Positions 1-57,844 of a stretch of 64,000 nt of DNA are shown here, piece after piece. Source of the DNA: Escherichia phage vB_EcoM_ESCO32. Below the pieces are notes generated by a model. That model was not told the DNA's origin, ran no database searches, and saw only the letters and a list, made by a program, of their open reading frames with translations. Location of the stretch: the sequence record OM386658.1, one strand, 5' to 3'. Position 1 is the stretch's first letter; every line of letters begins with the position of its first letter. The translations under genes and the position numbers were made by a program.

Positions 1-450
1 GCACAGGGCGGTATCCGAAATAGTGTATTAGCAGCTATTGCTCCAAATGAGTCCAGTAGTCTTGTAAGTAATACGACTAACTCTGTGTATCCTGTACGTG
101 ATACTATAGTTTATAAACAAAGCCAAAAGGGTAATGTTCTGTTTATTGTGCCAGACTACGATAAACTAAAAGATATTTACCAATCGGCTTGGGATACACC
201 AGATAAAGATATGGCTGAAGCATATGGGCTGTTGACTAAATTCTTAGATCAAGGTGCATCATGTGATAAGTGGATTGACTATTCTAAGATGGAAGGTGGT
301 CGTTTATCCATTAAATCAGAAATGCAATATATTCTTCAGTTTGCAAAACTTGGTGGTAAATCTTTGTACTATCTAAATAGCAGAACAAAATCGGCAACCT
401 CACTCGCTCAAGAGGATGAAGAATCCGGTTGTGAGGCTTGTAAGATGTAA
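1..450 (+). CDS. nrdA: class Ia ribonucleotide reductase large subunit, C-terminal part (5' end lies outside window)
   Basis: Frame 1 is open from base 1; C-terminal tail ...EDEESGCEACKM carries the redox Cys pair typical of R1 C-termini; nrdB follows. Confidence 0.75.
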   Translation, partial: AQGGIRNSVLAAIAPNESSSLVSNTTNSVYPVRDTIVYKQSQKGNVLFIVPDYDKLKDIYQSAWDTPDKDMAEAYGLLTKFLDQGASCDKWIDYSKMEGGRLSIKSEMQYILQFAKLGGKSLYYLNSRTKSATSLAQEDEESGCEACKM

Positions 451-17616: not shown

Positions 17617-18429
17617 ATGCGAAGAGTAATTTTTGTTAGTGGCGCAGGTTTAAGTGCAGACAGTGGGATTCGAACGTTCCGAACAGACACAGATAGTGGT
17701 CGTGCCTTATGGGAAGAATATGACTTAGAAGAGGTCTGCGATATTGGAGCTTTCCAAGCAGGTTATCGTGTGAGAACATCTCCAGATCTTCCAGTGGTCG
17801 GTGGTGTAGACGAGAACGGTATGGACTTGTATGCCAAAACACACGAATTTTATAACAAAAGACGTGTTGAGCTTAAAGATGTACAACCTAATGCTGCACA
17901 TATTCAAATAGCAAGGTGGTTTAAGGAATATCCTAACCAAGTAGTAAACTTGACAACAAACGTTGATGACCTACTAGAGCGAGCAGGTGTAGACAGGGAT
18001 TCTGTTATTCACGTGCACGGATATCTTCCTGAAGTAGTTTACCGTATGCATCCTGGAGATTACAAAACACTGGTAGACATTGGTTACAATAGTATAAACA
18101 TAGATGATTATAACTGGGTGAAGCCTAATGTTGTATTTTTTGGTGAGGCTGCACCTTTGTATGCAGATATGGCTCACTTGTTTGATACTTTGACCATGCA
18201 AGATTTGGTTGTTGTAGTAGGATGTTCAAACCAAGTTATCAATTTTAATTGGGAATTATTCCCTGCACTTAATATGGGTACAAAAATGATCGTTGTTAAC
18301 CCAGGAATTAATTACGAAGAAACTCTTCTTTACGAAGATAGAGGAGTCTTTGTTTATAGAGAAAAGGCAGCAGATGCTTTTAGCAATCCTGCTTTCATAA
18401 AAATGATAGAAGATCATTTGACTAAGTAA
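17617..18429 (+). CDS. Sir2-family (sirtuin-like) NAD-binding protein
   Basis: 270 aa; N-terminal VIFVSGAGLSADSGIRTFR matches the Sir2 GAGISxxxGIPxFR motif; GGAG SD. Confidence 0.7.
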   Translation: MRRVIFVSGAGLSADSGIRTFRTDTDSGRALWEEYDLEEVCDIGAFQAGYRVRTSPDLPVVGGVDENGMDLYAKTHEFYNKRRVELKDVQPNAAHIQIARWFKEYPNQVVNLTTNVDDLLERAGVDRDSVIHVHGYLPEVVYRMHPGDYKTLVDIGYNSINIDDYNWVKPNVVFFGEAAPLYADMAHLFDTLTMQDLVVVVGCSNQVINFNWELFPALNMGTKMIVVNPGINYEETLLYEDRGVFVYREKAADAFSNPAFIKMIEDHLTK

Positions 18430-28953: not shown

Positions 28954-29406
28954 TTATACGATGTTCACACTAATATCTGCAACACCAACAAGAGAATAGA
29001 CTTCAACTACACTCTGTGTACGATCCAGCTTGTAACGTTTCGCCTCTTTTTCAACTTCCTCACGGGAGATGGTTTCCATGATCGGAACTCCATCCACTAC
29101 AAGCAGGTATTTCTCTTCGTGTTTACTTTTTGGTGCTTCCTCTAAGACTTCTACAAAATACTCAAACTCACTTTTTGCAAGCAACGTGTAACACTGAAGA
29201 AAGTCTCCTTCATTTTGAGCGATAATTTCTTGTTCTCCTGCTAAGGATTGCAAAGCAGTGACACCATACCAATCATCCACATCTAATACACGAAAATAGG
29301 AATCACCTAAAAAAGAAGCAATCCTGCTATTACACTCAGACATGTTAGCAAACTTACGGATATAAGATGGGTTTTTAAAACGATACACTTTACCAATTTC
29401 AAACAT
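28954..29406 (-). CDS. hypothetical protein
   Basis: Track ORF; AAGGA SD. Confidence 0.55.
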   Translation of the reverse strand: MFEIGKVYRFKNPSYIRKFANMSECNSRIASFLGDSYFRVLDVDDWYGVTALQSLAGEQEIIAQNEGDFLQCYTLLAKSEFEYFVEVLEEAPKSKHEEKYLLVVDGVPIMETISREEVEKEAKRYKLDRTQSVVEVYSLVGVADISVNIV

Positions 29407-29417
29407 TACACAAATCC

Positions 29418-29594
29418 TTATTGTTCAAGAGTAAAAGGAATGATTTCACTATAGCTGTATTGCATGGCATTCACTTCTGCTTCTGCACGTTGTGCTAGTT
29501 CTAATGTTGCACAGATCTTGTAAGGTACAGTGCTGCATTGGCTCCAGCCTGGGGTATTCTTTGTTACTAAGTACACAGTAGTTTGTTTATCCAT
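29418..29594 (-). CDS. small protein, 58 aa
   Basis: ORF below threshold; GAGAGGAAAAG SD; fills gap. Confidence 0.35.
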   Translation of the reverse strand: MDKQTTVYLVTKNTPGWSQCSTVPYKICATLELAQRAEAEVNAMQYSYSEIIPFTLEQ

Positions 29595-29609
29595 CTTCTT
29601 TTCCTCTCT

Positions 29610-29825
29610 TTAAACAGTATATTCGTGTGGAAGGAAAACATAATCTTCTCCTTCAACAACATCAACTACTTCCCACTTCCAGCCAGGTACTTGGCTCATT
29701 GTCTTGAATGACACATAAGCAACTCCGCTGTAAGCGATATCGGCATCTAATATAAGAGGGAAAGCAACGTGTGTCAACCCCAGATAACCACAATTATTTT
29801 CAATACACACCTGAATGCTTTTCAT
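29610..29825 (-). CDS. hypothetical protein
   Basis: Track ORF 29610..29870 trimmed to ATG overlapping upstream stop. Confidence 0.45.
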   Translation of the reverse strand: MKSIQVCIENNCGYLGLTHVAFPLILDADIAYSGVAYVSFKTMSQVPGWKWEVVDVVEGEDYVFLPHEYTV

Positions 29826-29826
29826 G

Positions 29827-30285
29827 TTATGCTCCATTAAAGACGGGGCGTGTAGCATTACGTTCATCATTCACTGTAATAAGGTTTTTCATAACCATAA
29901 CACCCTGAATATAGCCTAGCCAACGATGGCGTTTGGTTTCAGACATACCATTACTCCCATCCTGAATTTCACTCAACATCCACAGTAAGTGGGGAACACC
30001 TGTTTCACTGGTATCTGGATCTTCTACAGAACTAAGAATCGTTTCATAGCGTTCACAAATTTCTGGGTAGAATTCATAATCCTGTTGTACATCTCGCATT
30101 TCTCGAATGAAGTGACGAGCAATAGGCTTCCCACGAAAATATTCATTGATGAAATCAATAACACACATCTCGCTGCCTGTCACCACGGAAGGCGTTCCTA
30201 TGTTAAATTGAACACTCACACCGCATTCTTTTACAAGATTATGTACACGCTCCGTGTTAGCAAGATACAAAGATACAGTTTTCAT
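29827..30285 (-). CDS. hypothetical protein
   Basis: Track ORF; GAGAGGTG SD. Confidence 0.55.
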   Translation of the reverse strand: MKTVSLYLANTERVHNLVKECGVSVQFNIGTPSVVTGSEMCVIDFINEYFRGKPIARHFIREMRDVQQDYEFYPEICERYETILSSVEDPDTSETGVPHLLWMLSEIQDGSNGMSETKRHRWLGYIQGVMVMKNLITVNDERNATRPVFNGA

Positions 30286-30355
30286 TTACACCTCTCATTA
30301 GTAGTTTGTTATGCGCGATATTGCATATTTTATGGAACACAGTGTACAGGCATTT

Positions 30356-30724
30356 CTATTCAATGCAAGCATTATTTGCATCTTCGATTCTGTCTTTCAC
30401 CCATTGAAGACGTAACGTGTTGGTATGACACGCCAAGTCTATACACTCTGAAAGGTAATCCATGCAATCTGCATTGAACGGAAGATTGTAGTCCAGTCCT
30501 GCACATGTAAATTGTTTCCTCATTTCGTATTTCAAACTATCCAACAAACGATCACGCCATCTTTTATCTTCTTCTCTAGTTACCTCACCAACAAAATCAT
30601 CTACATAATCTACCAGACAACCACATAAGCCACTCGTTGTGCGATTCATTGCAGGATGGTTGGCAATCCATGCTTTATAGAATCGTATTAAAGCTGCACT
30701 ACTCAACGGAATATTACTTTTCAT
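30356..30724 (-). CDS. paralogue family member
   Basis: Track ORF; LIRFYKAW...GLCGCL...LPFN...HTNTLRLQWVKDRI. Confidence 0.6.
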   Translation of the reverse strand: MKSNIPLSSAALIRFYKAWIANHPAMNRTTSGLCGCLVDYVDDFVGEVTREEDKRWRDRLLDSLKYEMRKQFTCAGLDYNLPFNADCMDYLSECIDLACHTNTLRLQWVKDRIEDANNACIE

Positions 30725-31091
30725 TATTACCCCCTAACACCAAACATGAATCGGCAATACGATCTTTCACCCACTGCAATCTCCCTGGGTTAGTATGGCA
30801 AGAATGTTTCTTACCTTCATCTTCATAACACAGAAGGTCATCATTAAAGGGCAGGAAGGAGGATAGCCCAGCACACGTGAATTGCAATTTCATCTCTTCT
30901 AGCGTTTTACTACGAACCATCTTGAAATGTTCTATATCTTCTTGCGTAGGTTTTTTCTTTGACATAGTGGTTGCCAGATAATCCATAAGGCAAATACACA
31001 AACCAACATTCTCACGATGCATTGAGGAATGATCTTCCATCCATGCTTTGTAAAATTCTAACAGCAGTGGACTGCTAAGAGGAACACACAT
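30714..31091 (-). CDS. paralogue family member
   Basis: Track ORF 30714..31148 trimmed to ATG after AAGGAG (matches paralogue N-termini); LLEFYKAW...GLCICL...LPFN...HTNPGRLQWVKDRI. Confidence 0.55.
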   Translation of the reverse strand: MCVPLSSPLLLEFYKAWMEDHSSMHRENVGLCICLMDYLATTMSKKKPTQEDIEHFKMVRSKTLEEMKLQFTCAGLSSFLPFNDDLLCYEDEGKKHSCHTNPGRLQWVKDRIADSCLVLGGNNEK

Positions 31092-31461
31092 ATCAGACTC
31101 CTTTATAAATTTACGTTTCATGCCACACATCATACAGCATCTTTTCATCTATTACAAGAACAGCAACATAGAAACATCATTAATGGAGGGCTTAGTATAG
31201 GAATTAGTATAGGTATTCCCTATCAATTATTCTATATATACCTATTATTTTTAACACACCCCTTTGTACATAATATAGACAAATAAATATCTATGCCACA
31301 AAAATTTTCCGGTATACCCGATTTATTTCGACACACCCTTTTTCATAAGCGTAAAGTCAATAATATCAATAACTTGCCGCAAAATACTGCTCGCTTGCGA
31401 GAGGTGCTTAACGCGATTTTCAGCGCCCCCCGATTTCTGCCGACCGTCCCCCTCAAATATC

Positions 31462-31480
31462 AATGAGAATAATTATCATT
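31462..31480. promoter_or_regulatory. Fur-box-like palindrome
   Basis: AATGAGAATAATTATCATT, followed by TTGCAT; approx. Confidence 0.4.
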
Positions 31481-31658
31481 TGCATTATCATTCAATGACT
31501 TATAAGACTTTTGATTATTTTCTGAGCAAGAAAGGTACTACTCACAACAAAACAGATAAATTCTAAGTAAATCAATGGCTTGGCAAGTCTAAACATCTAT
31601 ATACACCTTGCCAAATGAAATGATCTGGCGTGAAATAGTGCCACCCGTGGAAGATAAC

Positions 31659-31675
31659 TGATAATGATTATCATT
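31659..31675. promoter_or_regulatory. Fur-box-like palindrome (best copy)
   Basis: ctGATAATGATTATCATTtgc matches 16 of 19 positions of Fur consensus GATAATGATAATCATTATC; preceded by GATAAC hexamer. Confidence 0.45.
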
Positions 31676-32542
31676 TGCATACTTTCTGTACTATAAAACC
31701 GACTAAAAATCAAGATAATTCTGATTTATTGCGCTTTTAAGAAAGTAGGCTCAACAAATAGGGGAATACATTGCAACAAATGAGGTATGTTATAGGGGCA
31801 ATAGTATGAAAAATCATCTATTCAGATAAAATAATTTTGCGCAATAGTGGCAATATTTTTCTTGACAAGAAAGATTTCTTTGTGTTCACATAGCGCCCCC
31901 TGGAGGGTGGCGCATTATGATCATCAGTGTCATTATTCATTTCAGTGTTATTATTCACCATGTTTATTATATGCAGCTTATATTATAGCCAATGTTCTAA
32001 ACATTAGCTAATAATAACGCACCGCAACAATGTAAGGGAATACAATATACTCGTATATTGTTGCGCTTGCAATTGTTGCAAGCTACATAAGCACAAATAA
32101 TAACTATCGGTGATGGTTATTATGTGGGGTGTGTAGTTGCGTTATTATTAGCCGCCTATGTGTCCGGCATAGGCTGCTAATGATACGCTTGCGAATTATA
32201 TTTCTTGTTATAGTTATTGTATGAAATGATTACTACATGAAATGGTTATTTAGGTAATAGATAGGGAGGTAAAGATTAGATCATAAATAGATAGGATATT
32301 AATTATTTAGCAATGTTACTAACAATTTAATAGTTACTTTGTGCAACAATTCGATAGATTATAGTTATAGTTTTAAGGGTTAGATAGATTATAGTTAGCT
32401 TAGTAATGATTTACATTGATTATTGTTGTTTAATATAAGGTTATCAATAAGATAGTAACAGTATGTTATAAATAAAAGTAAGATAATTAGCTTTAATTTA
32501 GTTAGATAACTTATTATTTTATAAGTTAGATGGTCTTAAGTT

Positions 32543-32561
32543 AAGAATGATTATCATTATT
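32543..32561. promoter_or_regulatory. Fur-box-like palindrome
   Basis: AAGAATGATTATCATTATT. Confidence 0.4.
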
Positions 32562-32597
32562 GCATTATGCAGTTTATTGCATAAATAATCAGCTATA

Positions 32598-32618
32598 AAT
32601 GAAAATGATTATCACTTA
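32598..32618. promoter_or_regulatory. Fur-box-like palindrome
   Basis: AAATGAAAATGATTATCACTT; the segment AATGATTATCACTTA recurs at about 44268. Confidence 0.4.
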
Positions 32619-32821
32619 AGAGGAAAGACAAGAAAAAGGCTGTTTTTGCCAGATAGTTACATTGAGAAATTAAAAATAAGCGGTCTAAAACACGTTGTAA
32701 GCGCCTTATGATCTTCATGGTATGGTTGTTCATCTGCTCCTTGATTAGCTCGATACCGCGATCTATTCACTTTTTTCGGTGAACGTTTTTGATAGGTAAA
32801 AGCTATCATCTTTATTTAGGT

Positions 32822-32850
32822 AAAAAGAAAGGGCGCTTTGTGCGCCCTGG
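32822..32850 (-). terminator. rho-independent terminator (minus strand)
   Basis: GGGCGC-TTTGT-GCGCCC hairpin with T-run on minus strand after gene 32864..33247; same hairpin family at 34304 and 38518. Confidence 0.6.
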
Positions 32851-32863
32851 TGTGAAATGTTAT

Positions 32864-33247
32864 TTACTTATAAGCCGGATCGTTTGTTATATCAATCCAA
32901 TGAGCTAAATTAATTTTATTTTTTGCTTTCATTTTCTCGATCAAACGTTCGGCTAATGTCTCGGAACGAATATAAACATGCTCGCTAAAATCTTGCCCGG
33001 TTTCTTCGTCGATCATCTCGCGATATTCAATTTTCCCGATAAACGCATGATTCAGCGCATAAGTTTTACCCGTGTACCAGTTATGTAAATGGATCTCGCA
33101 TTTATAATCATCGCTATACCCTTCGGTTGTTCTAACTTCAACCAGATCGCCTTTAAACACTGATAAGCACCACATAGGATCACGATCTACAGCGCCGTTA
33201 AAATCTTTACCGTTTACAGTAGCCGCCAGGTTGATGATATTGCTCAT
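32864..33247 (-). CDS. hypothetical protein
   Basis: Track ORF; GAGGA SD. Confidence 0.6.
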   Translation of the reverse strand: MSNIINLAATVNGKDFNGAVDRDPMWCLSVFKGDLVEVRTTEGYSDDYKCEIHLHNWYTGKTYALNHAFIGKIEYREMIDEETGQDFSEHVYIRSETLAERLIEKMKAKNKINLAHWIDITNDPAYK

Positions 33248-33322
33248 GGTGATTCCTCGTTTACCGTTTAAAATTGCTTGCCCTACACGATAACTATAAG
33301 TTAACAGAGGCTATAAAGCAAG

Positions 33323-33553
33323 TTATTTTTCAAAAAATTTTTCTGCTGTGATATTCTTCCCAGTGGGGTTAGCTACTTTCAAAATTTTATCATGTACTGG
33401 ACGCCCGAAAGAATAAGATCCGTATACAGTAAACCAATAATCGCCGTCAGGCTGTACTATTACCGCCGCATAGGGTACGCCTTTTTCGTTATTGCTGACA
33501 AAATAGATCACATTGCCGTTAATAGCCTCAGCGCGTTTAATTTGTTCGATCAT
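33323..33553 (-). CDS. hypothetical protein
   Basis: Track ORF; preceded by PeSL-like cassette. Confidence 0.55.
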   Translation of the reverse strand: MIEQIKRAEAINGNVIYFVSNNEKGVPYAAVIVQPDGDYWFTVYGSYSFGRPVHDKILKVANPTGKNITAEKFFEK

Positions 33554-33571
33554 GATATGATTCCTATATTG

Positions 33572-33632
33572 GGCGGGAAACCATTTCCCGCCTTACGTGA
33601 TACATCTTAGTATAAGGGCGATCCGGTGTCAA
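33572..33632 (-). promoter_or_regulatory. PeSL-like cassette (early promoter + 5' stem-loop)
   Basis: Minus strand TTGACA - 17 nt - TAAGAT, then perfect 9-bp hairpin GGCGGGAAA-cca-TTTCCCGCC, then SD and ATG. Confidence 0.55.
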
Positions 33633-33645
33633 TAGATAAAGTTAA

Positions 33646-33882
33646 TTATTTTGCATAATCAATAACAGCGCATATTTTATCATTTACATCTTGTAAATCA
33701 AAGGCATAGGCGATCTTGCCTTGTAATTTTCCACGGGTGAAACAGATACGATAAACGCCGTTTTTACTGTCATCTTCTGATTTTAGTATTTTTGCAACTG
33801 TTGCAATTAACAGATCATCAGAGTAAGCGATAAAACCGCCACGTAAAATAGGTGATTTTTTGAGGATCATGACTTCTTTCAT
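33646..33882 (-). CDS. hypothetical protein
   Basis: Track ORF 33646..33930 trimmed to ATG after AGGAAAAG. Confidence 0.5.
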   Translation of the reverse strand: MKEVMILKKSPILRGGFIAYSDDLLIATVAKILKSEDDSKNGVYRICFTRGKLQGKIAYAFDLQDVNDKICAVIDYAK

Positions 33883-34303
33883 TTTCTTTTCCTGTTTTCG
33901 TTTTGGGTATGTTCTACCCTCTAAAAACAATATTAAACTGTTGTGATTTATCGGTCAATAGATGAGATTGTAAAGATTTGATAGTTTATTCCTTTGATGT
34001 TTTGTTATTTAATAGATATTAGCTATCAATATATAGCGGGATCTTCCGGTGATTATCTTCCCCTGTCCCCAGGTGCCGCCCGTTCCATAATAATAATCAA
34101 AAGCAGGATAAAAGGCAAGATAAAAGGCAAATTATTCCCTATGTGCTTTAAACGCTCTAAACAGCTTTCTAACAGCTTTTTCATCCTGGCAAGGTGATTA
34201 GTCATTGTTACCTTGTTTAAGCGGTTATAATCGGTTTTAGGCTGTTTTACGCCACCTTTTACGTTTATTCTTTACGTGTTACTTCCATCGTGAAAAAAGA
34301 ATA

Positions 34304-34335
34304 CAAAAAAGGGCGCTTAGTGCGCCCCTTTCTTT
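34304..34335 (-). terminator. rho-independent terminator
   Basis: GGGCGC-TTAGT-GCGCCC hairpin flanked by A and T runs. Confidence 0.6.
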
Positions 34336-34344
34336 TACCGTGTA

Positions 34345-34734
34345 TTAATATTCGTTATAATACATCGCTAACTTTTCATCAAAAGCCGATTGACGATCTG
34401 CATACTCCCAAAACATTTCTTGATCCTGTTGTTCGTCATCATCCATCATGTTGAATTGCGCAACCTCCTGGTAAGTGATCGCCATATTATAACGATAGGT
34501 GATCTCTTCTGCGATGTTTTCCGGTAAAGATGATTCTACACTGTCTAACAGCATATTTAACATCATTTCAGCCGCTTTTTCATCATTATCAAAGCAGTAA
34601 GCAGACCATGCCGCATGATGTTTATTTTTCATCTTTGCAATCAAGCCGTTGACTAAAAAAGGCGCTACGTTGTTAACGATACCCTGTAAAGATTGGAATT
34701 TTTCAACGTTAGAAACAGAAACCAGGTTGCGCAT
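34345..34734 (-). CDS. hypothetical acidic protein
   Basis: Track ORF 34345..34770 trimmed to ATG (longer form would run through the hairpin). Confidence 0.5.
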   Translation of the reverse strand: MRNLVSVSNVEKFQSLQGIVNNVAPFLVNGLIAKMKNKHHAAWSAYCFDNDEKAAEMMLNMLLDSVESSLPENIAEEITYRYNMAITYQEVAQFNMMDDDEQQDQEMFWEYADRQSAFDEKLAMYYNEY

Positions 34735-34757
34735 AGTATTTACCTTTTTGATTACCT

Positions 34758-34816
34758 GGCGGGAAACCATTTCCCGCCTACGTGGTAAATAATACCATAT
34801 TGGGGATCGGTGTCAA
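34758..34816 (-). promoter_or_regulatory. PeSL-like cassette
   Basis: TTGACA - 16 nt - TATTAT then GGCGGGAAA-cca-TTTCCCGCC hairpin. Confidence 0.55.
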
Positions 34817-34822
34817 TACTTT

Positions 34823-35209
34823 TTATTCAATATAAATCAAATTATCTTCACCAATGTAAGCATGCACCGATGGCATTAATTTAGCTGCATTTGTTAGGCG
34901 GTTGGCGGTGTTAGTAGTGTATATTTCAGGGCGATCCCAAAAGCCTACGCCGTGACCGTTACGGGTGAAATGTAAGTCATTCCCGATCTGGTTTGCTGTT
35001 GCGCCGTCGCTCATTGCCTCAGAGATAGCAGCATCATTGGCATCACAATAAGCCGCTACGTCATGAATGATCCGCTGATGGGCTTGATCTGAAAAATCAT
35101 AATCGTCTAAGTTATCAATAAAATAGCCTTCATGATCCCTGGCGGATTCAGCAAAAATAAAGGCTTCTTTATAACCGTTGATGATTTCAATAATGATTTC
35201 AGTTTTCAT
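34823..35209 (-). CDS. hypothetical protein
   Basis: Track ORF. Confidence 0.55.
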   Translation of the reverse strand: MKTEIIIEIINGYKEAFIFAESARDHEGYFIDNLDDYDFSDQAHQRIIHDVAAYCDANDAAISEAMSDGATANQIGNDLHFTRNGHGVGFWDRPEIYTTNTANRLTNAAKLMPSVHAYIGEDNLIYIE

Positions 35210-39709: not shown

Positions 39710-39937
39710 TTAGTTTAATGCATCCAGGCACAACAAGCGATCAACATTTAGATCGGTTAGGCTAATCGTTGGCACCTGGTAGGATTCGATATATTCGACG
39801 CTCGACCACTGACCAAAATTAGCGACCGCCCAGCTATTCAAGGAAGAGTGAAGATCATCCCCTTTCTTCTCTGTGATGACTGCTACTACCTGGGAGCTTC
39901 CAACCGTACCGGATACGCGAACAATAACGATAGCCAT
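39710..39937 (-). CDS. hypothetical protein
   Basis: Track ORF. Confidence 0.55.
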   Translation of the reverse strand: MAIVIVRVSGTVGSSQVVAVITEKKGDDLHSSLNSWAVANFGQWSSVEYIESYQVPTISLTDLNVDRLLCLDALN

Positions 39938-39959
39938 AATTATAACCTTTCTTTGATTT

Positions 39960-40019
39960 GGCGGGAAACCATTTCCCGCCCTATGTGATAAACTATACCA
40001 GAATATAAAACGTTGTCAA
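39960..40019 (-). promoter_or_regulatory. PeSL-like cassette
   Basis: TTGACA - 16 nt - TATAGT then GGCGGGAAA-cca-TTTCCCGCC hairpin. Confidence 0.55.
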
Positions 40020-40028
40020 CTGTTTTTA

Positions 40029-40268
40029 TTACATTCCAACCATAGCGGCACGGATTGCAGTTTTACTATACTTGAATCCGTCCGGTGTTTTATCTTGTCC
40101 AGTTTGCTCCAGGAATAACATCATATCACGCGCGGCATCATTCTTATTTGTATTAGCTGCGATAAATTCACGCGCAAGATTATAAAAACCTTCATCGTTG
40201 TTGATCCAAAGGCTTACATTCCAATGAGTTTTGTTTTTGTGACCGTTGTACATTTTAGATTTAGCCAT
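40029..40268 (-). CDS. hypothetical protein
   Basis: Track ORF 40029..40325 trimmed to ATG downstream of hairpin. Confidence 0.5.
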   Translation of the reverse strand: MAKSKMYNGHKNKTHWNVSLWINNDEGFYNLAREFIAANTNKNDAARDMMLFLEQTGQDKTPDGFKYSKTAIRAAMVGM

Positions 40269-43692: not shown

Positions 43693-43959
43693 ATGACAAA
43701 TACTACTTTACACCTCATGCACTCATTAGGCTGGCAAGGCGGCACGGTGCACCAGGTAGCAAGCGCAACGGGCTTAAAGGTTGAAACCGTTCTCAACCTG
43801 GGCGATCATAAGGTGGAAGAAATAGATCATTTTGATACGTTCGCAAATGGTTATCTATGGGCTTGCAGTGGCGGCGGGGAAAGCAAGATCCCACCAGGGG
43901 CGCGGGGTGATATGTATTTTTGGTTAGGTGTCCTATCCTGGCAAGAAAACAAAAAATAA
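43693..43959 (+). CDS. hypothetical protein (lone plus-strand gene at edge of minus-strand block)
   Basis: Track ORF 43567..43959 trimmed to ATG 43693; upstream TTGCTA-18-TATTAT and small hairpin. Confidence 0.45.
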   Translation: MTNTTLHLMHSLGWQGGTVHQVASATGLKVETVLNLGDHKVEEIDHFDTFANGYLWACSGGGESKIPPGARGDMYFWLGVLSWQENKK

Positions 43960-43961
43960 TA

Positions 43962-43990
43962 TTGACAAGCCCAGGGATCGGGCTTATACT
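43962..43990 (+). promoter_or_regulatory. near-consensus sigma70 promoter with no ORF downstream
   Basis: TTGACA - 17 nt - TATACT; downstream about 200 nt are GC-rich with inverted repeats and no SD-ATG ORF. Confidence 0.5.
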
Positions 43991-44221
43991 GTCTTACATA
44001 CAGAAGAGGAAGCGCCACCCCCACGGCGTAAAGGCGGGGCTAACATACCAGGGCACTACTGGTTGGAAGGTTGATCGCCGGTAGCTCGTCTAAAATAAAT
44101 TTGTAAAGAAATGTAAAGATAAAAATAATTGCTTGCTTTTGTTGTTGGTTATGCTATTCTTATTGTATGGCGAGGGGACACGGGAGCGCGAGACAAACAC
44201 CGCCCCTGCGCGTTATTCTCT

Positions 44222-44332
44222 AAATGAGAAAATTCTCATTTGCTAATGATTCTCATTCTCTTACTGAGAATGATTATCACTTACATAGTTAAATGATAAT
44301 GATTCTCATTTACAAATGAGAATCATTATCAT
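44222..44332. promoter_or_regulatory. cluster of five Fur-box-like palindromes
   Basis: AAATGAGAAAATTCTCATTT; TAATGATTCTCATT; GAGAATGATTATCACTT; GATAATGATTCTCATTTAC (15 of 19 to Fur consensus); AATGAGAATCATTATCAT. Confidence 0.45.
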
Positions 44333-44354
44333 ACGCACACCTATAAAAACACGA

Positions 44355-44557
44355 AATTGAACTTTTCATTTTTGATTTTTCTACGGAAAAAGGCAAAAAA
44401 ACTTTAAATAAACTGGGGAATTTTTAAAAAATTGAAGTTTTCATTTTCTAAACCTGGATAGAAATACGTACAAAAACTTTAAATAATTTTGACCAAACTT
44501 GAACTTTTCATTTTCTAAATTTGTACCCAAAAATCTGTAAAAACTTTAAATAATTTT
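44355..44557. repeat. three tandem direct repeats of a 66-76 bp unit
   Basis: Each unit has TTGAA(C/G)TTTTCATTTT and AAAAACTTTAAATAA boxes separated by about 22 variable nt; approx. Confidence 0.55.
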
Positions 44558-44772
44558 GTCCTTTTTATAAAAATGATTTTACTGTTCTGTTATAAATAGT
44601 AGCTAAGAGATAATGTGTCTTTTAAAAACCAAATAGCATAGTCCAACAAACAAATTAAATAATTTATTAACAGAGTACAAAATAATACTTACTCTGGATA
44701 TATTATTCAGAGGGTGAATTTCCGTACATGAAACCCACACCCCTTTTTATAAAAATAAAAATTTTCAAAATA

Positions 44773-45324
44773 TCAGGAAATATCAGATTGTGCTTTTAGA
44801 TAAACAGCAAGGTCTGTATGCCATTTTCCTAAAAGATTTTGTCCTTTCCAACAGTCCTTATTTTCCACATCACGATCCCACATCCCCATTTTGATACCAT
44901 AAATAGAATCATAAGGGCTTGCCTCTACGAACTCCTTATCGGCGTAAGCAATAAGTTTATTTTTGAGATCTTCATTTTGTGTGTATTTAAGATACAAACC
45001 ACGCTTGACAATCTTCTCTCGTAAAGAAGTCCAGGTATCTTCATCATAATCTTTAACTAATCTGCCTAGTCGCTTATAATATGCTTGTTCTTTTTCTCCT
45101 GTATATCTTAGACCTCCGGTTAAAATAGAAGATGCAATGTTGTAATCATAAAATAAACATGCTTTTCTCCACATCATATATTGTTCCACACAAGTAAATT
45201 CAACAGAACTTGTAATAGAATTATTATACTTGGGAGCTAAAGGTTCAATAAAAGATGATAGATACCAGTTGCTAAATTCATCTTTTGCCGAGAAGAAGAA
45301 CACATACTTATCAGTAATCCGCAT
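44773..45324 (-). CDS. NADAR-domain protein (YbiA/DUF1768-like)
   Basis: 183 aa; FSNWY...VEQYMMWRKACLF...GQNLLGKWHTDL resemble YbiA/NADAR motifs FSNF...SEHYFQAQKF...N.LG; AAGGAGG SD. Confidence 0.55.
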   Translation of the reverse strand: MRITDKYVFFFSAKDEFSNWYLSSFIEPLAPKYNNSITSSVEFTCVEQYMMWRKACLFYDYNIASSILTGGLRYTGEKEQAYYKRLGRLVKDYDEDTWTSLREKIVKRGLYLKYTQNEDLKNKLIAYADKEFVEASPYDSIYGIKMGMWDRDVENKDCWKGQNLLGKWHTDLAVYLKAQSDIS

Positions 45325-55069: not shown

Positions 55070-57844
55070 ATGGCTAAGAAAGAGTTGAGCTTCACTCCGA
55101 CAGAAGAGCAAACAGCTATTAAGGAGGCTTTTCCAGACCATCGCTTTTTAACTATCCAAGCTAAATCTGGGTCAGGCAAAACGTCAACACTTTATTTGCT
55201 GGCTAACAGTACAGAAGATCGCATTCTTTACTTAGCTTTCAATAAAAGCATGGCAGAAGAAGCACGACGTAAGATGCCACTAAATGTAGAATGCCGTACA
55301 TTGCATTCTATTTGCTATCAATTCCTGGATCATCGTTTACGTGCAAAACTGTCACGACCAGAAGGACAGTATGTTAACGTTGCAGGTACAGGTAGTGAGA
55401 TAGCAAAGAAATTTAAGATTAATAATCTTATTGATAAACGAGGGAAAACACTTTTAACTCGTGCTATGATCGGTTTAATGATCAAGCAAACCGTAGGTAA
55501 GTTTGAATTTTCGGATGATCCTTTTATCAGCCGTAAACATTTTCCTAGTGTACATCTTGCAGATATTAAAAGAAAAGGTATTAACGAACACAAACTAATT
55601 ACAGAAGTAGTTAAGTATGCAAAACAATTGTGGCGAGAGCGCATCGATCCTAACACAGACACTTTGATGACGCATGACACCTATGTAAAATTGTTTGAAT
55701 TATCTGGTGCTGATCTTGGTTATGATATTATTTTTGGTGATGAATTCCAGGATGTTAACCCTGCATTCTTATCTATTCTGCGAAATGCTAAATCTGCAAA
55801 ACAAATTGTGGTAGTGGGCGATGAATTCCAATGTGTGTCGGAAAACACGGTACTTAATACCGAGAATGGTCAGGTTACAATGAAAGACCTGCAAATCGGT
55901 GATAAGGTAGAGTCTTATTCTAATGGTAAAGTTACATTTAGAAAAGTAACAAATAAGACTTTATCTACACGTACAAAAGGTAGGAATATTATTACTGCCA
56001 CAGGTAAAACTTTAGATATGACACATAACCATCGTATTTGGGCTTCATCCTATGTTCTGAAAGATGATCAGATGGTGGTATACCTAATGTGGAGGAAAGA
56101 TTTAGGTTTCCGAGTAGGGATCACTAACAAATTCGATGATAAAGAAGGTTTTTCTAAACTGGGGCAACGTACACGTTCTGAAAAAGCACAGAAATTGTGG
56201 GTGTTGGATATTGTTGAAAACCGTGAAGCTGCTATGGAAAAAGAAATGGCATACAGTTTACAATATGGCATTCCTACTTGTGTATTTGAAGCAAGTTCAC
56301 GCGGCATTAATCAAGAAAGGATCAATAACATTTTTGAACAATTCGGACAAAACGGTTTTAAACTTTTAGAGGATAAAGATTATCATTTTGCTTATCCACA
56401 TTGGCACAGCATCAATTGTGCAGTAGATGAAAGAAAAATGTTAACAGTGACTTTGCGAGCACAAGGTTGTAAAGGAACACAAGTTAGTTTTGAGTGGACA
56501 GAAAGTGAAATGTCAATCTATGCTTCACTCATTGAAGCAGGTGTAAGCGTAAGTGTTGCTAAGTTGGAAGGTCGTTACCGTGTACGTAAATATTTCAATT
56601 CTTATCGTGAAGCATTGAGTTTTGCACAAAAGATCCTTGAAATAGTGCCGTTTGCATCTTTAAAAGAATGCATGTCCTCTGTGAACACCGCCAAATATAC
56701 TTTAATTCCGGCGGCGGGTTTGTTTAAAGGCATGTCTGTGTTGGTAAAAGATGGTGATACTGTAACGGCAGAAGAAATTGTGGACATTGTAGATAGTGAA
56801 GGTATCTATTATGATATTGAAGTAGAGGATACTGCTAACTTCTTTGGCAATGAAATTCTTAGCCACAACTGCATTTATCAATTTAGAGGTAGCTCTAATA
56901 TGATGATTGAAACAGCTAAGTATGGGGCAGAGCTTCCATTAACTGCTTGCTTCCGTTTTGGCCCCAAAGTGGCAAACATTGCCAATATGATTTTAAGCGA
57001 TAAAGAACCTTTGCGTCATCCTTTGGTTGGTAAAGGCTTTGATACTGTAGTAGGTAGCTACAAATCAGATGTTGTAGACTATACAAAACCTTACACTATC
57101 ATCTTTCGCAAGAATTTAACCTTGCTTATGGAGGCAATGGATCGTATTGCAGATGGGGAAGAAATTATTATTAACGTAGACACCAGGGATTTTATCTCTA
57201 TGGTAGATAGTGTTAATGCTCTTCGGAGAGGAGATATTGAGAAAGTAAAACATGAAACTGTATTACCTTACGCAGACTGGGATGAATTTGTTGAGTGTGC
57301 AGAGGCTGATCCAGATGCTAAACGCTTGTTAAACATTGTAGTTTCTGGTAAGGCAAACACTATAGCACATACACTTAGAACGCATAGAAATTCTCCTACA
57401 GCAAAAGTCACACTGACTACAGCACATAAGTCTAAAGGTTTGGAGTGGGATCAGGTTATTGTTGCTAATGATTTTCCTTCCAATTATGATAAAAAGACTG
57501 GTGAGTGGGTAGGACTAGAAGAGGCAGAGCGAAACCTACTGTATGTAGCGCATACCCGTTGTGTTAAATGCTTACAATGGAACACAACCGTACAGGAGAT
57601 TATAGATATCAACCGTGTTGCAACAGAGAAAGTACCAACAAGCACCACTTTACCGATCAATGGTATTAAACTTGGTGTATTTGGCGCTGGCACATCTCGA
57701 AAAGCTGTAGAAAAATTTGTTGCAGATTCTTTTGATGGTAACTATAATCATGCACAAGCATATGAGAGTTGGCTAGAGGAAGGTGAAGGTGATTTTTTAG
57801 GTGAAATAAATCTTTTACCAGACATAAATAAACTGGTAAACTAA
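55070..57844 (+). CDS. UvrD/PcrA-like superfamily 1 helicase containing an intein
   Basis: Track ORF trimmed to ATG 55070; Walker A AKSGSGKTST, motif II IIFGDEFQD; motif III is split (VVVGDEFQ / CIYQFRGSS) by a 346-aa insertion. Confidence 0.8.
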   Translation: MAKKELSFTPTEEQTAIKEAFPDHRFLTIQAKSGSGKTSTLYLLANSTEDRILYLAFNKSMAEEARRKMPLNVECRTLHSICYQFLDHRLRAKLSRPEGQYVNVAGTGSEIAKKFKINNLIDKRGKTLLTRAMIGLMIKQTVGKFEFSDDPFISRKHFPSVHLADIKRKGINEHKLITEVVKYAKQLWRERIDPNTDTLMTHDTYVKLFELSGADLGYDIIFGDEFQDVNPAFLSILRNAKSAKQIVVVGDEFQCVSENTVLNTENGQVTMKDLQIGDKVESYSNGKVTFRKVTNKTLSTRTKGRNIITATGKTLDMTHNHRIWASSYVLKDDQMVVYLMWRKDLGFRVGITNKFDDKEGFSKLGQRTRSEKAQKLWVLDIVENREAAMEKEMAYSLQYGIPTCVFEASSRGINQERINNIFEQFGQNGFKLLEDKDYHFAYPHWHSINCAVDERKMLTVTLRAQGCKGTQVSFEWTESEMSIYASLIEAGVSVSVAKLEGRYRVRKYFNSYREALSFAQKILEIVPFASLKECMSSVNTAKYTLIPAAGLFKGMSVLVKDGDTVTAEEIVDIVDSEGIYYDIEVEDTANFFGNEILSHNCIYQFRGSSNMMIETAKYGAELPLTACFRFGPKVANIANMILSDKEPLRHPLVGKGFDTVVGSYKSDVVDYTKPYTIIFRKNLTLLMEAMDRIADGEEIIINVDTRDFISMVDSVNALRRGDIEKVKHETVLPYADWDEFVECAEADPDAKRLLNIVVSGKANTIAHTLRTHRNSPTAKVTLTTAHKSKGLEWDQVIVANDFPSNYDKKTGEWVGLEEAERNLLYVAHTRCVKCLQWNTTVQEIIDINRVATEKVPTSTTLPINGIKLGVFGAGTSRKAVEKFVADSFDGNYNHAQAYESWLEEGEGDFLGEINLLPDINKLVN
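55832..56869 (+). mobile_element. intein (346 aa) inserted in helicase motif III
   Basis: Starts with Cys (CVSENTVLN, block A), block B LDMTHNHRIW, C-terminal blocks YYDIEVEDTANFFGNEILSHN ending His-Asn, followed by +1 Cys; size implies an internal endonuclease-like domain. Confidence 0.75.

What the first reader, a model, noticed from the sequence alone, without database searches (positions are those of the whole stretch)
31092..32863. 1.8-kb ORF-free AT-rich island inside an otherwise gene-dense phage genome
Gene packing elsewhere in the window is near-contiguous, often with overlapping stop/start codons. Between 31092 and 32863 neither strand carries an ORF of 60 aa or more. Instead there are GC-rich hairpins (CTCGCTTGCGAG at about 31391; GCGCCCCCTGGAGGGTGGCGC at about 31890), repeated short motifs (GATAGATTATAGTTA twice near 32353 and 32381; TTATTGCAT three times near 32560-32585), four Fur-box-like palindromes, and a strongly AT-rich 32.2-32.5 kb core. 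That architecture is typical of a replication origin, a multi-operator regulatory hub or a cluster of non-coding RNAs, none of which I can assign to a known T4 element by sequence.
Basis: seen in the sequence. Interest (0 to 1): 0.85.

Follow-up and report, generated by a model that had tools for sequence, protein, structure and literature searches.

The report
Phage genome-end junction with regulatory elements
The gene-free stretch is where the two physical ends of a phi92-like (not T4-like) phage genome meet, so its core is an already annotated 343-bp terminal repeat, but it also holds undescribed iron-regulator (Fur) binding motifs and a conserved folded RNA-like element.

Summary
Window 31092-32863 has no ORF of 60 aa or more and is the largest such gap in the window.

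The phage is a phi92-like Justusliebigvirus (Stephanstirmvirinae), not T4-like.

Window 31409-31751, read on the minus strand, is 98% identical to the 343-bp direct terminal repeat (DTR) annotated at both ends of phi92 RefSeq. The island is therefore the junction of the packaged genome's ends:
- last gene and terminator
- about 1.1 kb of right-end non-coding DNA
- the DTR
- a 316-nt leader
- the first left-end gene

Both DTR edges carry the word GTTR|AGC. The same words bound an exact 329-bp DTR in a second genus.

Two features appear undescribed:
- **Fur-type operator clusters.** Four lie in the island, one a perfect TGATAATnATTATCA. The window has 10 hits against 1.2 expected, and the boxes sit at homologous positions across the subfamily.
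- **A 168-nt five-helix element (32007-32174, + strand).** It shows strong covariation (16 of 54 pairs compensatory, 99% paired), has no Rfam match, and is always followed by a C-poor AT-rich tract.

Replication-origin function is neither supported nor excluded. Identity is known; the sub-elements are moderately interesting.

The parts
32864..33247 (-). Last gene before the right genome end (homologue of phi92 gp248; Pfam Phage_30_8, T4 gp30.8-like)
   Evidence: PF06019, E 4e-29.
32830..32848 (-). Intrinsic terminator of the gp248 homologue (AGGGCGC-ACAAA-GCGCCCT followed by a T run)
   Evidence: Annotated as a terminator in phage Paula. Invariant in Phapecoctavirus.
32621..32829 (.). Conserved non-coding block downstream of the terminator
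   Evidence: Conserved across genera in A1 columns 46-145. It is the only part of the island that also matches Av-05 (Vequintavirinae) and other distant phages (H77-H80).
32595..32619 (.). Fur-type box cluster 4 (two overlapping 19-mer matches 6 bp apart; TGAAAATGATTATCA)
   Evidence: Homologous box in Phapecoctavirus.
32542..32561 (.). Fur-type box 3 (AATAATGATAATCATTCTT, 16/19)
32187..32541 (.). AT-rich core (22.7% G+C), C-poor on the + strand (C 5.6%, G 17%). Contains the 18-nt direct repeat 32350-32367 / 32380-32397.
   Evidence: The sequence is poorly conserved and rich in indels, but the C-poor AT-rich composition is kept in all 13 genomes checked.
32007..32174 (+). Conserved five-helix structured element (candidate ncRNA or single-strand DNA structure), one copy per genome
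   Evidence: In A5, 99.1% of cells are paired, 16 of 54 pairs have compensatory changes, and all five measures give 0/500 shuffles. Invariant G.U pairs occur only on this strand. No Rfam match.
31752..32006 (.). Spacer between DTR-R and the structured element. It holds the G+C-rich inverted repeat 31893-31913 and + strand promoter-like sites (TTGACA at 31862; GTGTCA-16-TGtTATTAT at 31927-31954).
   Evidence: The promoter assignments are weak, and the hairpin is specific to this genus.
31409..31751 (-). Single copy of the 343-bp direct terminal repeat (DTR) of the packaged genome
   Evidence: 97.8% identical to phi92 DTR-L/DTR-R as annotated in NC_023693. BME3 has a 342-bp DTR by PhageTerm, and its record starts at 31410 and ends at 31751.
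31745..31758 (-). Left DTR boundary, TTTGTTG|AGCCTAC (cut inferred between 31752 and 31751)
   Evidence: GCTCAAC is kept at this position in the other genera.
31402..31415 (-). Right DTR boundary, CGCGTTA|AGCACCT (cut inferred between 31409 and 31408)
   Evidence: Schickermooser's exact 329-bp DTR ends with the same CGCGTTA|AGCAC.
31654..31678 (.). Fur-type box cluster 2, inside the DTR. Contains a perfect 7-1-7 site TGATAATGATTATCA (31659-31673) and a 17/19 match to GATAATGATAATCATTATC.
31459..31489 (.). Fur-type box cluster 1, inside the DTR (three overlapping 19-mer matches in 6-bp register)
   Evidence: (repeat family D1).
31586..31614 (-). Sigma-70 promoter-like site inside the DTR, pointing toward the left-end genes (TTGGCA-17-TAGACT; TTGACA in phi92)
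   Evidence: The -35 word is conserved in Phapecoctavirus but the -10 is not. It resembles the dispersed TTGACA...TATAGT early-promoter units elsewhere in the window.
31092..31408 (-). Left-end leader between the DTR and the first gene. Contains conserved repeats GGTGTGTYRAAAATAA (31241-31265, 31318-31342), the promoter-like site 31226-31254, and the palindrome 31390-31401.
   Evidence: family D4. Strongly conserved across genera in A1 columns 1465-1700.
30714..31091 (-). First left-end gene (125 aa, phrog_2510, unknown function), with a paralogue at 30356-30724

Best explanation
The island is the place where the two physical ends of a phi92-like myophage genome (Justusliebigvirus, Stephanstirmvirinae) meet when the genome is written as a circle or concatemer.

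**Layout, read in the phage's own orientation (window minus strand).**
- The last gene, a T4 gp30.8-like protein, ends at 32864 and is closed by an intrinsic terminator.
- About 1.1 kb of right-end non-coding DNA follows (32829 to 31752).
- Next comes the single copy of the 343-bp direct terminal repeat (31751 to 31409).
- A 316-nt conserved leader follows (31408 to 31092).
- The first left-end gene follows.

**Shown.**
- Homology to the DTR annotated in phi92.
- Synteny of the flanking genes.
- Conserved boundary words.

**Inferred: how the ends are made.** Terminase cuts concatemers at the two GTTR|AGC words. The repeat between them is duplicated during packaging, as in T7-type DTR phages.

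**Inferred: what the arms do.** They carry control elements rather than genes.
- A sigma-70-type promoter lies in the DTR and conserved promoter-like repeats lie in the leader. Both point into the left-end genes.
- Four Fur-type operator clusters lie in the island, two inside the DTR and two in the right arm. Host Fur-Fe2+ most likely binds them, making transcription from the terminal region depend on iron.
- In the right arm sits a 168-nt five-helix element, folded on the strand opposite to the genes and followed by a C-poor AT-rich tract. It is most likely made as RNA by leftward transcription from near the right end. It acts either as a stand-alone ncRNA or as the structured 5' part of a primer or R-loop transcript.
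For: **Identity and genome ends.**
- The island is 94-95% identical to about 50 Justusliebigvirus genomes.
- phi92 RefSeq annotates DTR-L at 1..343 and DTR-R at 148270..148612. The two copies are identical to each other and map to window 31751..31409 at 97.8% identity.
- The flanks match phi92 gp248 on one side and the left-end genes on the other.
- BME3 has a 342-bp DTR by PhageTerm. Its record starts at window 31410 and ends at 31751.
- PMC12695924 states that Stephanstirmvirinae genomes terminate in DTRs.
- Schickermooser (Phapecoctavirus) has an exact 329-bp DTR bounded by AATGTTG|AGCAAG and CGCGTTA|AGCACT. These are the same words as in the window.

**The region is non-coding and functional.**
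- A 1.5-1.9 kb ORF-free region sits at the same place in Phapecoctavirus and in Av-05. The rV5 genome map also shows a 'non-coding' box, location not checked.
- Conserved blocks alternate with indel-rich stretches.
- No ORF of 30 aa or more stays intact across genera.

**Fur-type boxes.**
- They are enriched 8- to 15-fold over shuffles.
- One site is a perfect 15/15 match to the 7-1-7 motif and a 17/19 match to the 19-mer.
- Overlapping hits lie exactly 6 bp apart, as in footprinted Fur clusters (PMC2189734).
- Eight of the ten hits lie in the two largest ORF-free gaps.
- Boxes sit at homologous positions in every Stephanstirmvirinae locus checked.

**Structured element.**
- In A5, with 22 distinct sequences, 99.1% of cells are paired against 91.2% in shuffles.
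- Sixteen of 54 pairs have compensatory changes, all five measures give 0/500, and slid controls give 24-52% paired.
- RNAalifold gives -72.6 kcal/mol on the + strand against -51.7 on the other strand.
- The covariance model scores 150-190 bits on one strand and 19-26 bits on the other, with one copy per genome.
- The C-poor AT-rich tract downstream is conserved in 13 of 13 genomes.
Against: **Genome ends.**
- The termini were not measured for this phage. They are transferred from relatives' annotations, and some of those records may simply have copied the phi92 convention.
- I could not read the original phi92 paper.
- The BME3 record is internally inconsistent: its ends are duplicated and its DTR feature is offset by about 73 nt.
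- GTTR|AGC is only 7 nt long. No cleavage data exist.

**Fur.**
- Fur binding is inferred from sequence alone.
- The boxes do not overlap a convincing conserved sigma-70 promoter.
- A phage-encoded regulator with a similar site cannot be excluded.

**Structured element.**
- No conserved promoter or intrinsic terminator brackets it.
- Both strands fold much better than shuffles (z -6.9 and -7.9).
- A single-strand DNA role in end replication or packaging therefore remains possible.
- A5 was aligned to the model, which favours the structure. A3, an independent MAFFT alignment, gave the same picture but with one measure not significant.
Confidence: 0.85

Rival explanations
1. The right arm is a replication origin. 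A transcript made on the window's + strand folds into the five-helix domain. It then runs into the C-poor (RNA G>C) AT-rich tract and forms a persistent RNA-DNA hybrid that primes DNA synthesis, as ColE1 RNA II does and as happens at the T4 ori(uvsY)/ori(34) and T7 primary origins. The genome-end location would be coincidental or complementary.
For: - The module 'structured element followed by a C-poor AT-rich tract' is conserved in 13 of 13 genomes, even though the tract's sequence diverges.
- The element folds on one strand only.
- No intrinsic terminator follows the element.
- The core has the lowest G+C in the window.
- The rV5 authors could not locate an origin by skew analysis, so the origin is unassigned in this group.
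Against: - There are no DnaA boxes.
- The iteron-like repeats are not conserved in Phapecoctavirus.
- Cumulative GC skew shows only a local blip at the island. The real switches, at about 18 kb and 49 kb, follow gene orientation.
- No conserved promoter was found upstream of the element.
- There are no replication data.
Confidence: 0.2
2. The structured element works as single-stranded DNA rather than RNA. It would be a strand-specific fold near the right end, used for priming (an ssi/G4-type primase signal) or as the fold-back intermediate that duplicates the terminal repeat during concatemer processing. A hairpin end of this kind has been proposed for the T7 right end (my recollection of Chung, Nardone and Hinkle 1990, not checked here).
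For: - The distance to the DTR-R boundary is roughly constant: 255 nt in the window and 207 nt in Schickermooser.
- There is one copy per genome.
- No promoter or terminator brackets the element.
- An invariant 8-bp-arm palindrome, GCTTGCAA-nnn-TTGCAAGC, sits inside it and could be a protein-binding site.
Against: Several G.U pairs are invariant or alternate with C-G and A-U pairs (columns 21/79, 30/70, 83/139, 89/133 and 163/169). That pattern is typical of selection on RNA. G.T mismatches are destabilising in DNA. The T7-type fold-back needs only a simple inverted repeat, not a five-helix domain.
Confidence: 0.2
3. The palindromic boxes are not host Fur operators. They would be binding sites for a phage protein, either the small terminase subunit (like the R sites of lambda cosB) or a phage repressor, that merely resemble Fur boxes because both are AT-rich palindromes.
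For: - Two boxes lie 50-95 bp inside the two DTR boundaries. A 37-nt repeat family (D1) surrounds them.
- No convincing promoter overlaps them.
Against: - A second cluster of four or five boxes lies about 12 kb away at 44241-44336, far from any terminus. That argues against a terminase-only role.
- The best site is a perfect match to the Fur 7-1-7 motif and a 17/19 match to the 19-mer. The 6-bp register is that of footprinted Fur clusters.
- The window encodes no Fur homologue.
Confidence: 0.2
4. The island is junk, a recent insertion, or hides protein-coding genes missed by the ORF scan.
For: Automatic annotators call seven to nine tiny 'hypothetical proteins' here in some records, such as VivaForever.
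Against: - The region is present at the same position in every relative checked, across at least three genera.
- Conservation is block-wise, and there is RNA-type covariation.
- No ORF of 30 aa or more is intact across genera. The hits that do appear contain stops or cover only fragments.
- Curated records (Paula, phi92, alia) leave the region unannotated.
Confidence: 0.03

Closest known systems
Direct terminal repeats of Escherichia phage phi92 (NC_023693: DTR-L 1..343, DTR-R 148270..148612) and other Stephanstirmvirinae
   Same: - The sequence is 97.8% identical.
- The flanking genes are the same.
- The boundary words are the same.
- The length is the same, 343 bp.
   Different: Nothing of substance differs for the repeat itself. 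In the window the first left-end gene is a phAPEC8_0019-like paralogue pair, not phi92 gp001. The non-coding arms and their elements are not annotated in any record I inspected.
T7-type concatemer junction (fixed ends, short DTR duplicated during packaging, early promoters just inside the left end)
   Same: - A short DTR with sequence-defined boundaries.
- Non-coding DNA with repeats on both sides.
- A host-type promoter just inside the left end.
- Inverted repeats close to the right end.
   Different: - This is an unrelated myophage of about 146 kb with a different terminase.
- The right arm is far longer, at 1.1 kb.
- It carries a covarying five-helix element and Fur-type boxes, which are not known from T7.
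- The comparison rests on my general knowledge and was not tested here.
Escherichia coli Fur boxes (19-bp GATAATGATAATCATTATC; 7-1-7 TGATAATnATTATCA; clusters in 6-bp register)
   Same: - Consensus match up to 17/19 and 15/15.
- Overlapping sites 6 bp apart.
- Location in intergenic AT-rich DNA.
   Different: - The boxes lie in the terminal repeat and non-coding arms of a virulent phage, not at iron-uptake promoters.
- Overlap with a promoter is not shown.
- No binding data exist.
- I found no report of Fur boxes in such phages in the searchable literature.
The 'non-coding' box in the rV5 genome map (Kropinski et al. 2013, PMC3606486)
   Same: A kilobase-scale ORF-free block in a related large coliphage that its authors left unexplained. 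Av-05 (Vequintavirinae) shares the terminator-proximal block with the window.
   Different: - It belongs to a different subfamily.
- The five-helix element is not detectable in Av-05.
- I did not locate or align the rV5 block itself.
Primer/R-loop origins (ColE1 RNA II, T4 ori(uvsY)/ori(34), T7 primary origin)
   Same: A structured transcript or promoter followed by an AT-rich, strand-skewed unwinding tract.
   Different: There is no sequence or Rfam similarity, no mapped promoter, and no replication data. This is an analogy only.

Membership tests
phi92-type direct terminal repeat region (Stephanstirmvirinae genome ends) | Sequence homologous to the annotated phi92 DTR | tested here: met
   phi92 positions 1-556 align to window 31751-31199 at 97.8% identity. 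DTR-L and DTR-R are identical to each other.
phi92-type direct terminal repeat region (Stephanstirmvirinae genome ends) | Flanked by the last gene (gp248) on one side and the left-end early genes on the other | tested here: met
phi92-type direct terminal repeat region (Stephanstirmvirinae genome ends) | Conserved boundary sequences at both edges of the repeat | tested here: met
   GTTG|AGC and CGCGTTA|AGCAC occur in the window, in phi92 and at the exact 329-bp DTR of Schickermooser.
phi92-type direct terminal repeat region (Stephanstirmvirinae genome ends) | The repeat is physically present at both ends of virion DNA of this phage | not testable with these tools
   This needs sequencing reads or end mapping. 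The window holds only one copy.
Fur-regulated operator (E. coli Fur box) | Match to the 19-bp or 7-1-7 consensus above chance | tested here: met
   Best matches are 17/19 and 15/15. There are 10 hits against 1.2 expected, with 0 of 100 shuffles reaching that number.
Fur-regulated operator (E. coli Fur box) | Overlapping sites in 6-bp register, forming clusters | tested here: met
   Hit starts at 31459/31465/31471, 31654/31660, 32595/32601 and 44260/44266, compared with PMC2189734.
Fur-regulated operator (E. coli Fur box) | Overlap with the -35/-10 of a sigma-70 promoter | tested here: inconclusive
   Only weak candidates were found, such as TTATCA-18-TATAAA at 31668-31697 on the + strand. They are not clearly conserved.
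Fur-regulated operator (E. coli Fur box) | Binding by Fur and iron-dependent expression | not testable with these tools
   Needs gel shift, footprinting, a Fur titration assay or RNA-seq.
Replication origin | DnaA boxes or conserved iterons | tested here: not met
   No TTATCCACA with up to 1 mismatch occurs in the island. The 18-nt repeats are absent from Phapecoctavirus.
Replication origin | AT-rich unwinding element | tested here: met
   32187-32542 is 22.7% G+C, and the composition is conserved.
Replication origin | Strand-skew switch at the site | tested here: not met
   There is only a local blip. The skew switches at about 18 kb and 49 kb follow gene orientation.
Replication origin | Initiation of DNA synthesis mapped to the site | not testable with these tools
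   Needs marker-frequency analysis or 2D gels.
Any described RNA family (Rfam 15) or tRNA/tmRNA | Covariance-model or ARAGORN match | tested here: not met
   There are no hits at E up to 1 in 29000-35000, none at gathering score in the whole window, and no tRNA.
Structured non-coding RNA (new family candidate) | Conserved secondary structure supported by compensatory changes | tested here: met
Structured non-coding RNA (new family candidate) | Own promoter and terminator, and a detectable transcript | tested here: inconclusive
   No conserved promoter or terminator was found. Expression cannot be tested here.
T4-like genome element | The window belongs to a T4-like phage | tested here: not met
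   The best hits are Justusliebigvirus at 94-95% identity. Only the neighbouring gene is a gp30.8 homologue, at about 43% amino-acid identity to T4.

The most novel reading that the evidence does not exclude
Host iron status, read through Fur boxes built into the terminal repeat and right arm, gates leftward transcription of a strand-specific five-helix RNA at the right genome end. This RNA, together with the C-poor AT-rich tract behind it, primes or licenses replication or end-processing of the genome. That would be an iron-sensing RNA-dependent control module conserved across a whole subfamily of virulent, therapeutically used coliphages.

A further possibility follows from a side observation. 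A roughly 9-kb E. coli integrative island carries a copy of the DTR end, including the cut word, and may pirate this packaging signal.
Probability: 0.15. Interest if true: 0.8.

Novelty: new member of a known kind. Interest (0 to 1): 0.45.

Why it matters
**What is explained.** The finding should not be pursued as a T4 oddity.

**What remains unexplained.**

1. Fur-type operators sit inside the terminal repeat and non-coding arms of virulent phages. If host Fur binds them, infection by phi92-like phages would depend on iron availability. These phages have a broad host range and are used in therapeutic cocktails. Iron is scarce in urine, blood and the gut, where such phages are meant to work. 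I found no report of this in the searchable literature.

2. The 168-nt covarying element has no Rfam match. It is a clean candidate for a new phage RNA family, or a single-strand DNA signal, tied to genome ends.

Both are directly testable with simple experiments.

**Practical use.** The conserved GTTR|AGC boundary words also give a way to orient and trim Stephanstirmvirinae assemblies. Many are currently deposited in arbitrary permutations, and some carry spurious tiny ORFs called across this region.

Tried and rejected
- **Known RNA genes.** ARAGORN found no tRNA or tmRNA in the whole window. Rfam gave nothing at E up to 1 in 29-35 kb and nothing at gathering score window-wide. The weak miRNA-type hits around 44.3 kb only reflect the palindromic Fur-like boxes.
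- **Hidden coding capacity.** Twelve ORFs of 30 aa or more were compared with five other genera by tblastn. None is intact throughout; one 46-aa frame is kept only in FKP3.
- **T4 affiliation.** Rejected.
- **DnaA boxes.** None found. IHF consensus gave only two hits, at 31364 and 31570.
- **Recent capture of a host Fur-regulated promoter.** The DTR used as a query against 5,426 E. coli genomes hit only a 48-nt non-Fur segment.
- **Promoter or terminator bracketing the structured element.** Alignments of 260 nt upstream and 160 nt downstream in 13 genomes showed only semi-conserved words: TTGAC[AT] about 145 nt upstream in some genomes, and repeated GCTAATGAT words. My first attempt at this alignment mixed strands, because helix 1 is palindromic, and was discarded.
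- **The G+C-rich hairpin at 31893 and the palindrome at 31390.** Neither is followed by a T run on either strand, and neither is conserved outside the genus.
- **IMG/VR pattern scans.** Only 3-4 loci were returned. The metagenome scan returned 47 loci, of which 8 were true homologues by the covariance model.
- **Five-helix element in Vequintavirinae.** Not found in Av-05.
- **Literature.** The original phi92 paper (PMC3457257) is not held. One literature query was badly framed and uninformative.
Full report
**1. The observation.**

The sequence between 31092 and 32863 was read directly. No ORF of 60 aa or more lies between 31149 and 32863 on either strand; the longest is 57 aa. The downstream gene really starts at the ATG at 31091, behind an AAGGAG ribosome-binding site.

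Judged by ORFs of 60 aa or more, this is the largest uncovered gap in the window at 1715 nt. The runner-up is 813 nt at 43960-44772. The core 32187-32542 is 22.7% G+C, against 37.2% for the window.

The named motifs exist where stated, with two exceptions:
- TTATTGCAT occurs twice, not three times.
- CTCGCTTGCGAG is a 12-bp palindrome with a 2-nt centre, not a plausible hairpin.

The Fur-box-like palindromes are strongly non-random.

**2. What the window is.**

The island is 94-95% identical over its full length to about 50 Escherichia phages of roughly 146 kb. They belong to the genus Justusliebigvirus (phi92-like; Stephanstirmvirinae). It is not a T4-like genome. The one T4 connection is the adjacent gene (32864-33247, minus strand), which belongs to Pfam Phage_30_8 and is about 43% identical to T4 gp30.8.

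**3. The island is the junction of the genome ends.**

In the curated Paula record, the genes on one side of the island are labelled as homologues of phi92 gp248, the last phi92 gene. Those on the other side are labelled as homologues of phi92 gp002-gp006. phi92 RefSeq annotates a left terminal repeat at 1..343 and a right terminal repeat at 148270..148612. The two copies are identical. phi92 positions 1-556 align to window 31751-31199 at 97.8% identity, and the phi92 right end aligns to 33638-31409.

In the phage's own orientation, which is the window's minus strand, the order is:
- gp248 homologue
- intrinsic terminator (32848-32830)
- 1.08 kb of non-coding DNA (32829-31752)
- DTR (31751-31409)
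- 316-nt leader
- first left-end gene (31091-30714)

Independent support for the termini:
- The BME3 paper reports a 342-bp DTR from PhageTerm. Its record starts at window 31410 and ends at 31751.
- Several other records end at about 31752.
- A 2025 paper states that Stephanstirmvirinae genomes end in DTRs.

The window therefore holds a circular or concatemer-style representation with a single DTR copy.

**4. The boundaries.**

Aligning the island with two Phapecoctavirus genomes (A1) shows that both DTR edges are conserved: TGTTG|AGC on the left and CGCGTTA|AGCAC on the right.

The Schickermooser record (Phapecoctavirus) carries an exact 329-bp repeat at its two ends. That repeat is bounded by AATGTTG|AGCAAG and CGCGTTA|AGCACT. 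The left-edge word GCTCAAC (+ strand) is kept in the other genera as well.

I infer that GTTR|AGC marks the terminase cutting positions. This is inference from sequence only.

**5. The region is functional non-coding DNA.**

A 1.5-1.9 kb ORF-free region occupies the same position in Phapecoctavirus and in Av-05 of the Vequintavirinae. The rV5 genome map shows an unexplained 'non-coding' box.

Across genera, well-conserved blocks alternate with indel-rich stretches. None of the 12 ORFs of 30 aa or more stays intact across genera. The tiny 'hypothetical proteins' called here in some records are best read as annotation noise.

**6. Fur-type boxes.**

Against GATAATGATAATCATTATC, the window has 10 sites at 15/19 or better, where about 0.6 are expected from locally shuffled sequence. 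Against the 7-1-7 form TGATAATNATTATCA it has 10 sites with up to 2 mismatches, where 1.2 are expected and 0 of 100 shuffles reach that number.

Eight of those ten lie in the two largest ORF-free gaps. Four are in the island:
- 31459-31489, inside the DTR
- 31654-31678, inside the DTR
- 32542-32561
- 32595-32619

The site at 31659-31673 is a perfect match, and reads 17/19 on the 19-mer.

Hits overlap in exact 6-bp register, the arrangement described for footprinted Fur clusters (PMC2189734). Boxes occur at homologous positions in every Stephanstirmvirinae locus examined. Between genera one box differs by a 6-nt indel, which preserves the hexamer register.

The window encodes no Fur homologue. 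The DTR is not a recent copy of a host Fur-regulated promoter. A second cluster at 44241-44336, far from the ends, argues against a terminase-only role.

I conclude that host Fur very probably can bind these sites. Whether it regulates anything is not shown, because no convincing conserved promoter overlaps them. I found no description of such boxes in these phages.

**7. A conserved structured element.**

The most conserved non-coding block in the cross-genus alignment is 32007-32185. Within Justusliebigvirus it is 96-100% identical, higher than the island's average. In other genera it is about 80% identical.

Sequences from nine phages showed obvious compensatory changes. RNAalifold gives -72.6 kcal/mol on the window's + strand and -51.7 on the other strand.

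On an independent MAFFT alignment (A3, 10 sequences):
- 54 pairs in five helices are 99.6% paired.
- Thirteen pairs have double changes.
- Slid controls fall to 24-52% paired.

A covariance model finds exactly one copy per genome. It scores 150-190 bits on one strand and only 19-26 bits on the other. The element is absent from Av-05.

A metagenome scan added eight homologues. On 22 distinct sequences (A5):
- 99.1% of cells are paired.
- Sixteen of 54 pairs have compensatory changes.
- All five measures exceed every one of 500 shuffles.

A5 is fitted to the model, which favours the structure.

Several G.U pairs are invariant or alternate with Watson-Crick pairs. On the other strand they would be A.C mismatches. 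The folded strand is therefore the one opposite to the flanking genes.

Rfam has no match. Both strands of the single sequence fold far better than shuffles, at -76.5 and -64.3 kcal/mol. No conserved promoter or terminator brackets the element.

In all 13 genomes, the 300 nt that follow it on the folded strand are AT-rich and C-poor (C 5-12%, G 14-21%), although their sequence diverges.

**8. Mechanism.**

*Shown:* identity with the annotated phi92 DTR region, the conserved edges, the non-random and conserved Fur-type boxes, and the covarying strand-specific structure.

*Inferred:*
- Terminase cuts at the two GTTR|AGC words, and the repeat is duplicated at packaging.
- The DTR-internal TTGGCA-17-TAGACT site (TTGACA in phi92) and the conserved leader drive the left-end genes. 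This site resembles the TTGACA...TATAGT promoter-plus-hairpin units dispersed through the window.
- Fur-Fe2+ occupies the boxes and makes terminal transcription iron-dependent.
- The five-helix element is made as RNA by leftward transcription from near the right end.

I favour RNA over single-strand DNA at about 60:40, because of the conserved G.U pairs. I cannot choose between a stand-alone ncRNA and a primer or R-loop role.

The origin hypothesis gains from the conserved module of structure plus skewed AT-rich tract. It loses from the absence of DnaA boxes, conserved iterons and a skew switch.

**9. Comparison and novelty.**

The repeat itself is already annotated in phi92, so the core explanation is known. 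The overall architecture works like the concatemer junction of T7-type DTR phages. This is my general knowledge and was not tested; there is no homology.

The Fur-type boxes and the five-helix element are, as far as I could find, undescribed. I therefore rate the island as a new member of a known kind, with moderate interest.

**10. Limits.**

- The termini of this particular phage were not measured.
- I could not read the original phi92 paper.
- All promoter calls are weak.
- Fur binding, transcription and replication are untested.

Noticed in passing
window 43960-44772: This is the second-largest ORF-free gap (813 nt). In order, it contains a near-consensus sigma-70 promoter (TTGACA-17-TATACT, 43954-43982, + strand), a G+C-rich segment (about 43990-44090), a dense cluster of four or five Fur-type boxes including a long perfect palindrome (44241-44336), and a 67-nt tandem repeat of 2 copies, possibly 3 (44428-44558). 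It has no Rfam match.
   Followed up: partly
window 56371-56396: An isolated Fur-type site (CAAAATGATAATCTTTATC, 16/19, with a second hit 6 bp away). Its context was not examined.
   Followed up: no
window 31402-31467; L025 (NZ_CP009106.2) about 18251-18330: About 48-75 nt at the right end of the DTR, including the GTTR|AGC cut word, is 80-87% identical to an intergenic sequence in 40 of 5,426 complete E. coli chromosomes. That sequence lies just 3' of a serine recombinase gene, inside a roughly 9-kb integrative island next to thiM. The island carries a tyrosine integrase, GmrSD, HTH proteins, 82-bp att repeats and a duplicated TPP riboswitch. It could be a satellite or defence island carrying a copy of the phage packaging/cut signal, or a recombination relic.
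   Followed up: partly
window 39931-40040, with copies near 33568, 34742, 35572, 36405, 36774, 39058, 42888 and 43274: A dispersed intergenic repeat family. On the minus strand each unit has a near-consensus promoter (TTGACA-16-TATAGT) followed by the hairpin GGCGGGAAATGGTTTCCCGCC. Some records annotate these hairpins as terminators, although no T run follows them.
   Followed up: partly
GenBank MG065639, MG065645, MG065656, MG065689 and MG065650 (hits H3-H6 and H68): Records named 'Campylobacter phage' with host C. jejuni are about 95% identical to this coliphage island. They have coliphage genome sizes of 146-151 kb. They look like mislabelled or contaminant Justusliebigvirus and Phapecoctavirus genomes.
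   Followed up: no
L003/L004 (PP239276, phage BME3): The deposited BME3 record repeats window-equivalent 31410-32169 at both ends and then appends 31334-31751. Its 'DTR-L' feature is placed about 73 nt off the record end. The record structure does not match a simple 342-bp DTR.
   Followed up: partly
window 30356-31091: Two tandem paralogous genes (125 and 122 aa, cysteine-rich, phrog_2510, sharing the motif LQWVKDRI) occupy the first left-end positions in this phage. phi92 has gp001 there instead.
   Followed up: no
window 44773-45324: A NADAR-domain protein (PF08719, E 3e-36) is encoded next to the second Fur-box region.
   Followed up: no
window 31364-31376 and 31570-31582: Two of the window's 11 exact matches to the IHF consensus WATCAANNNNTTR lie in the island. 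One is inside the DTR and one is 33 nt outside its right boundary.
   Followed up: no
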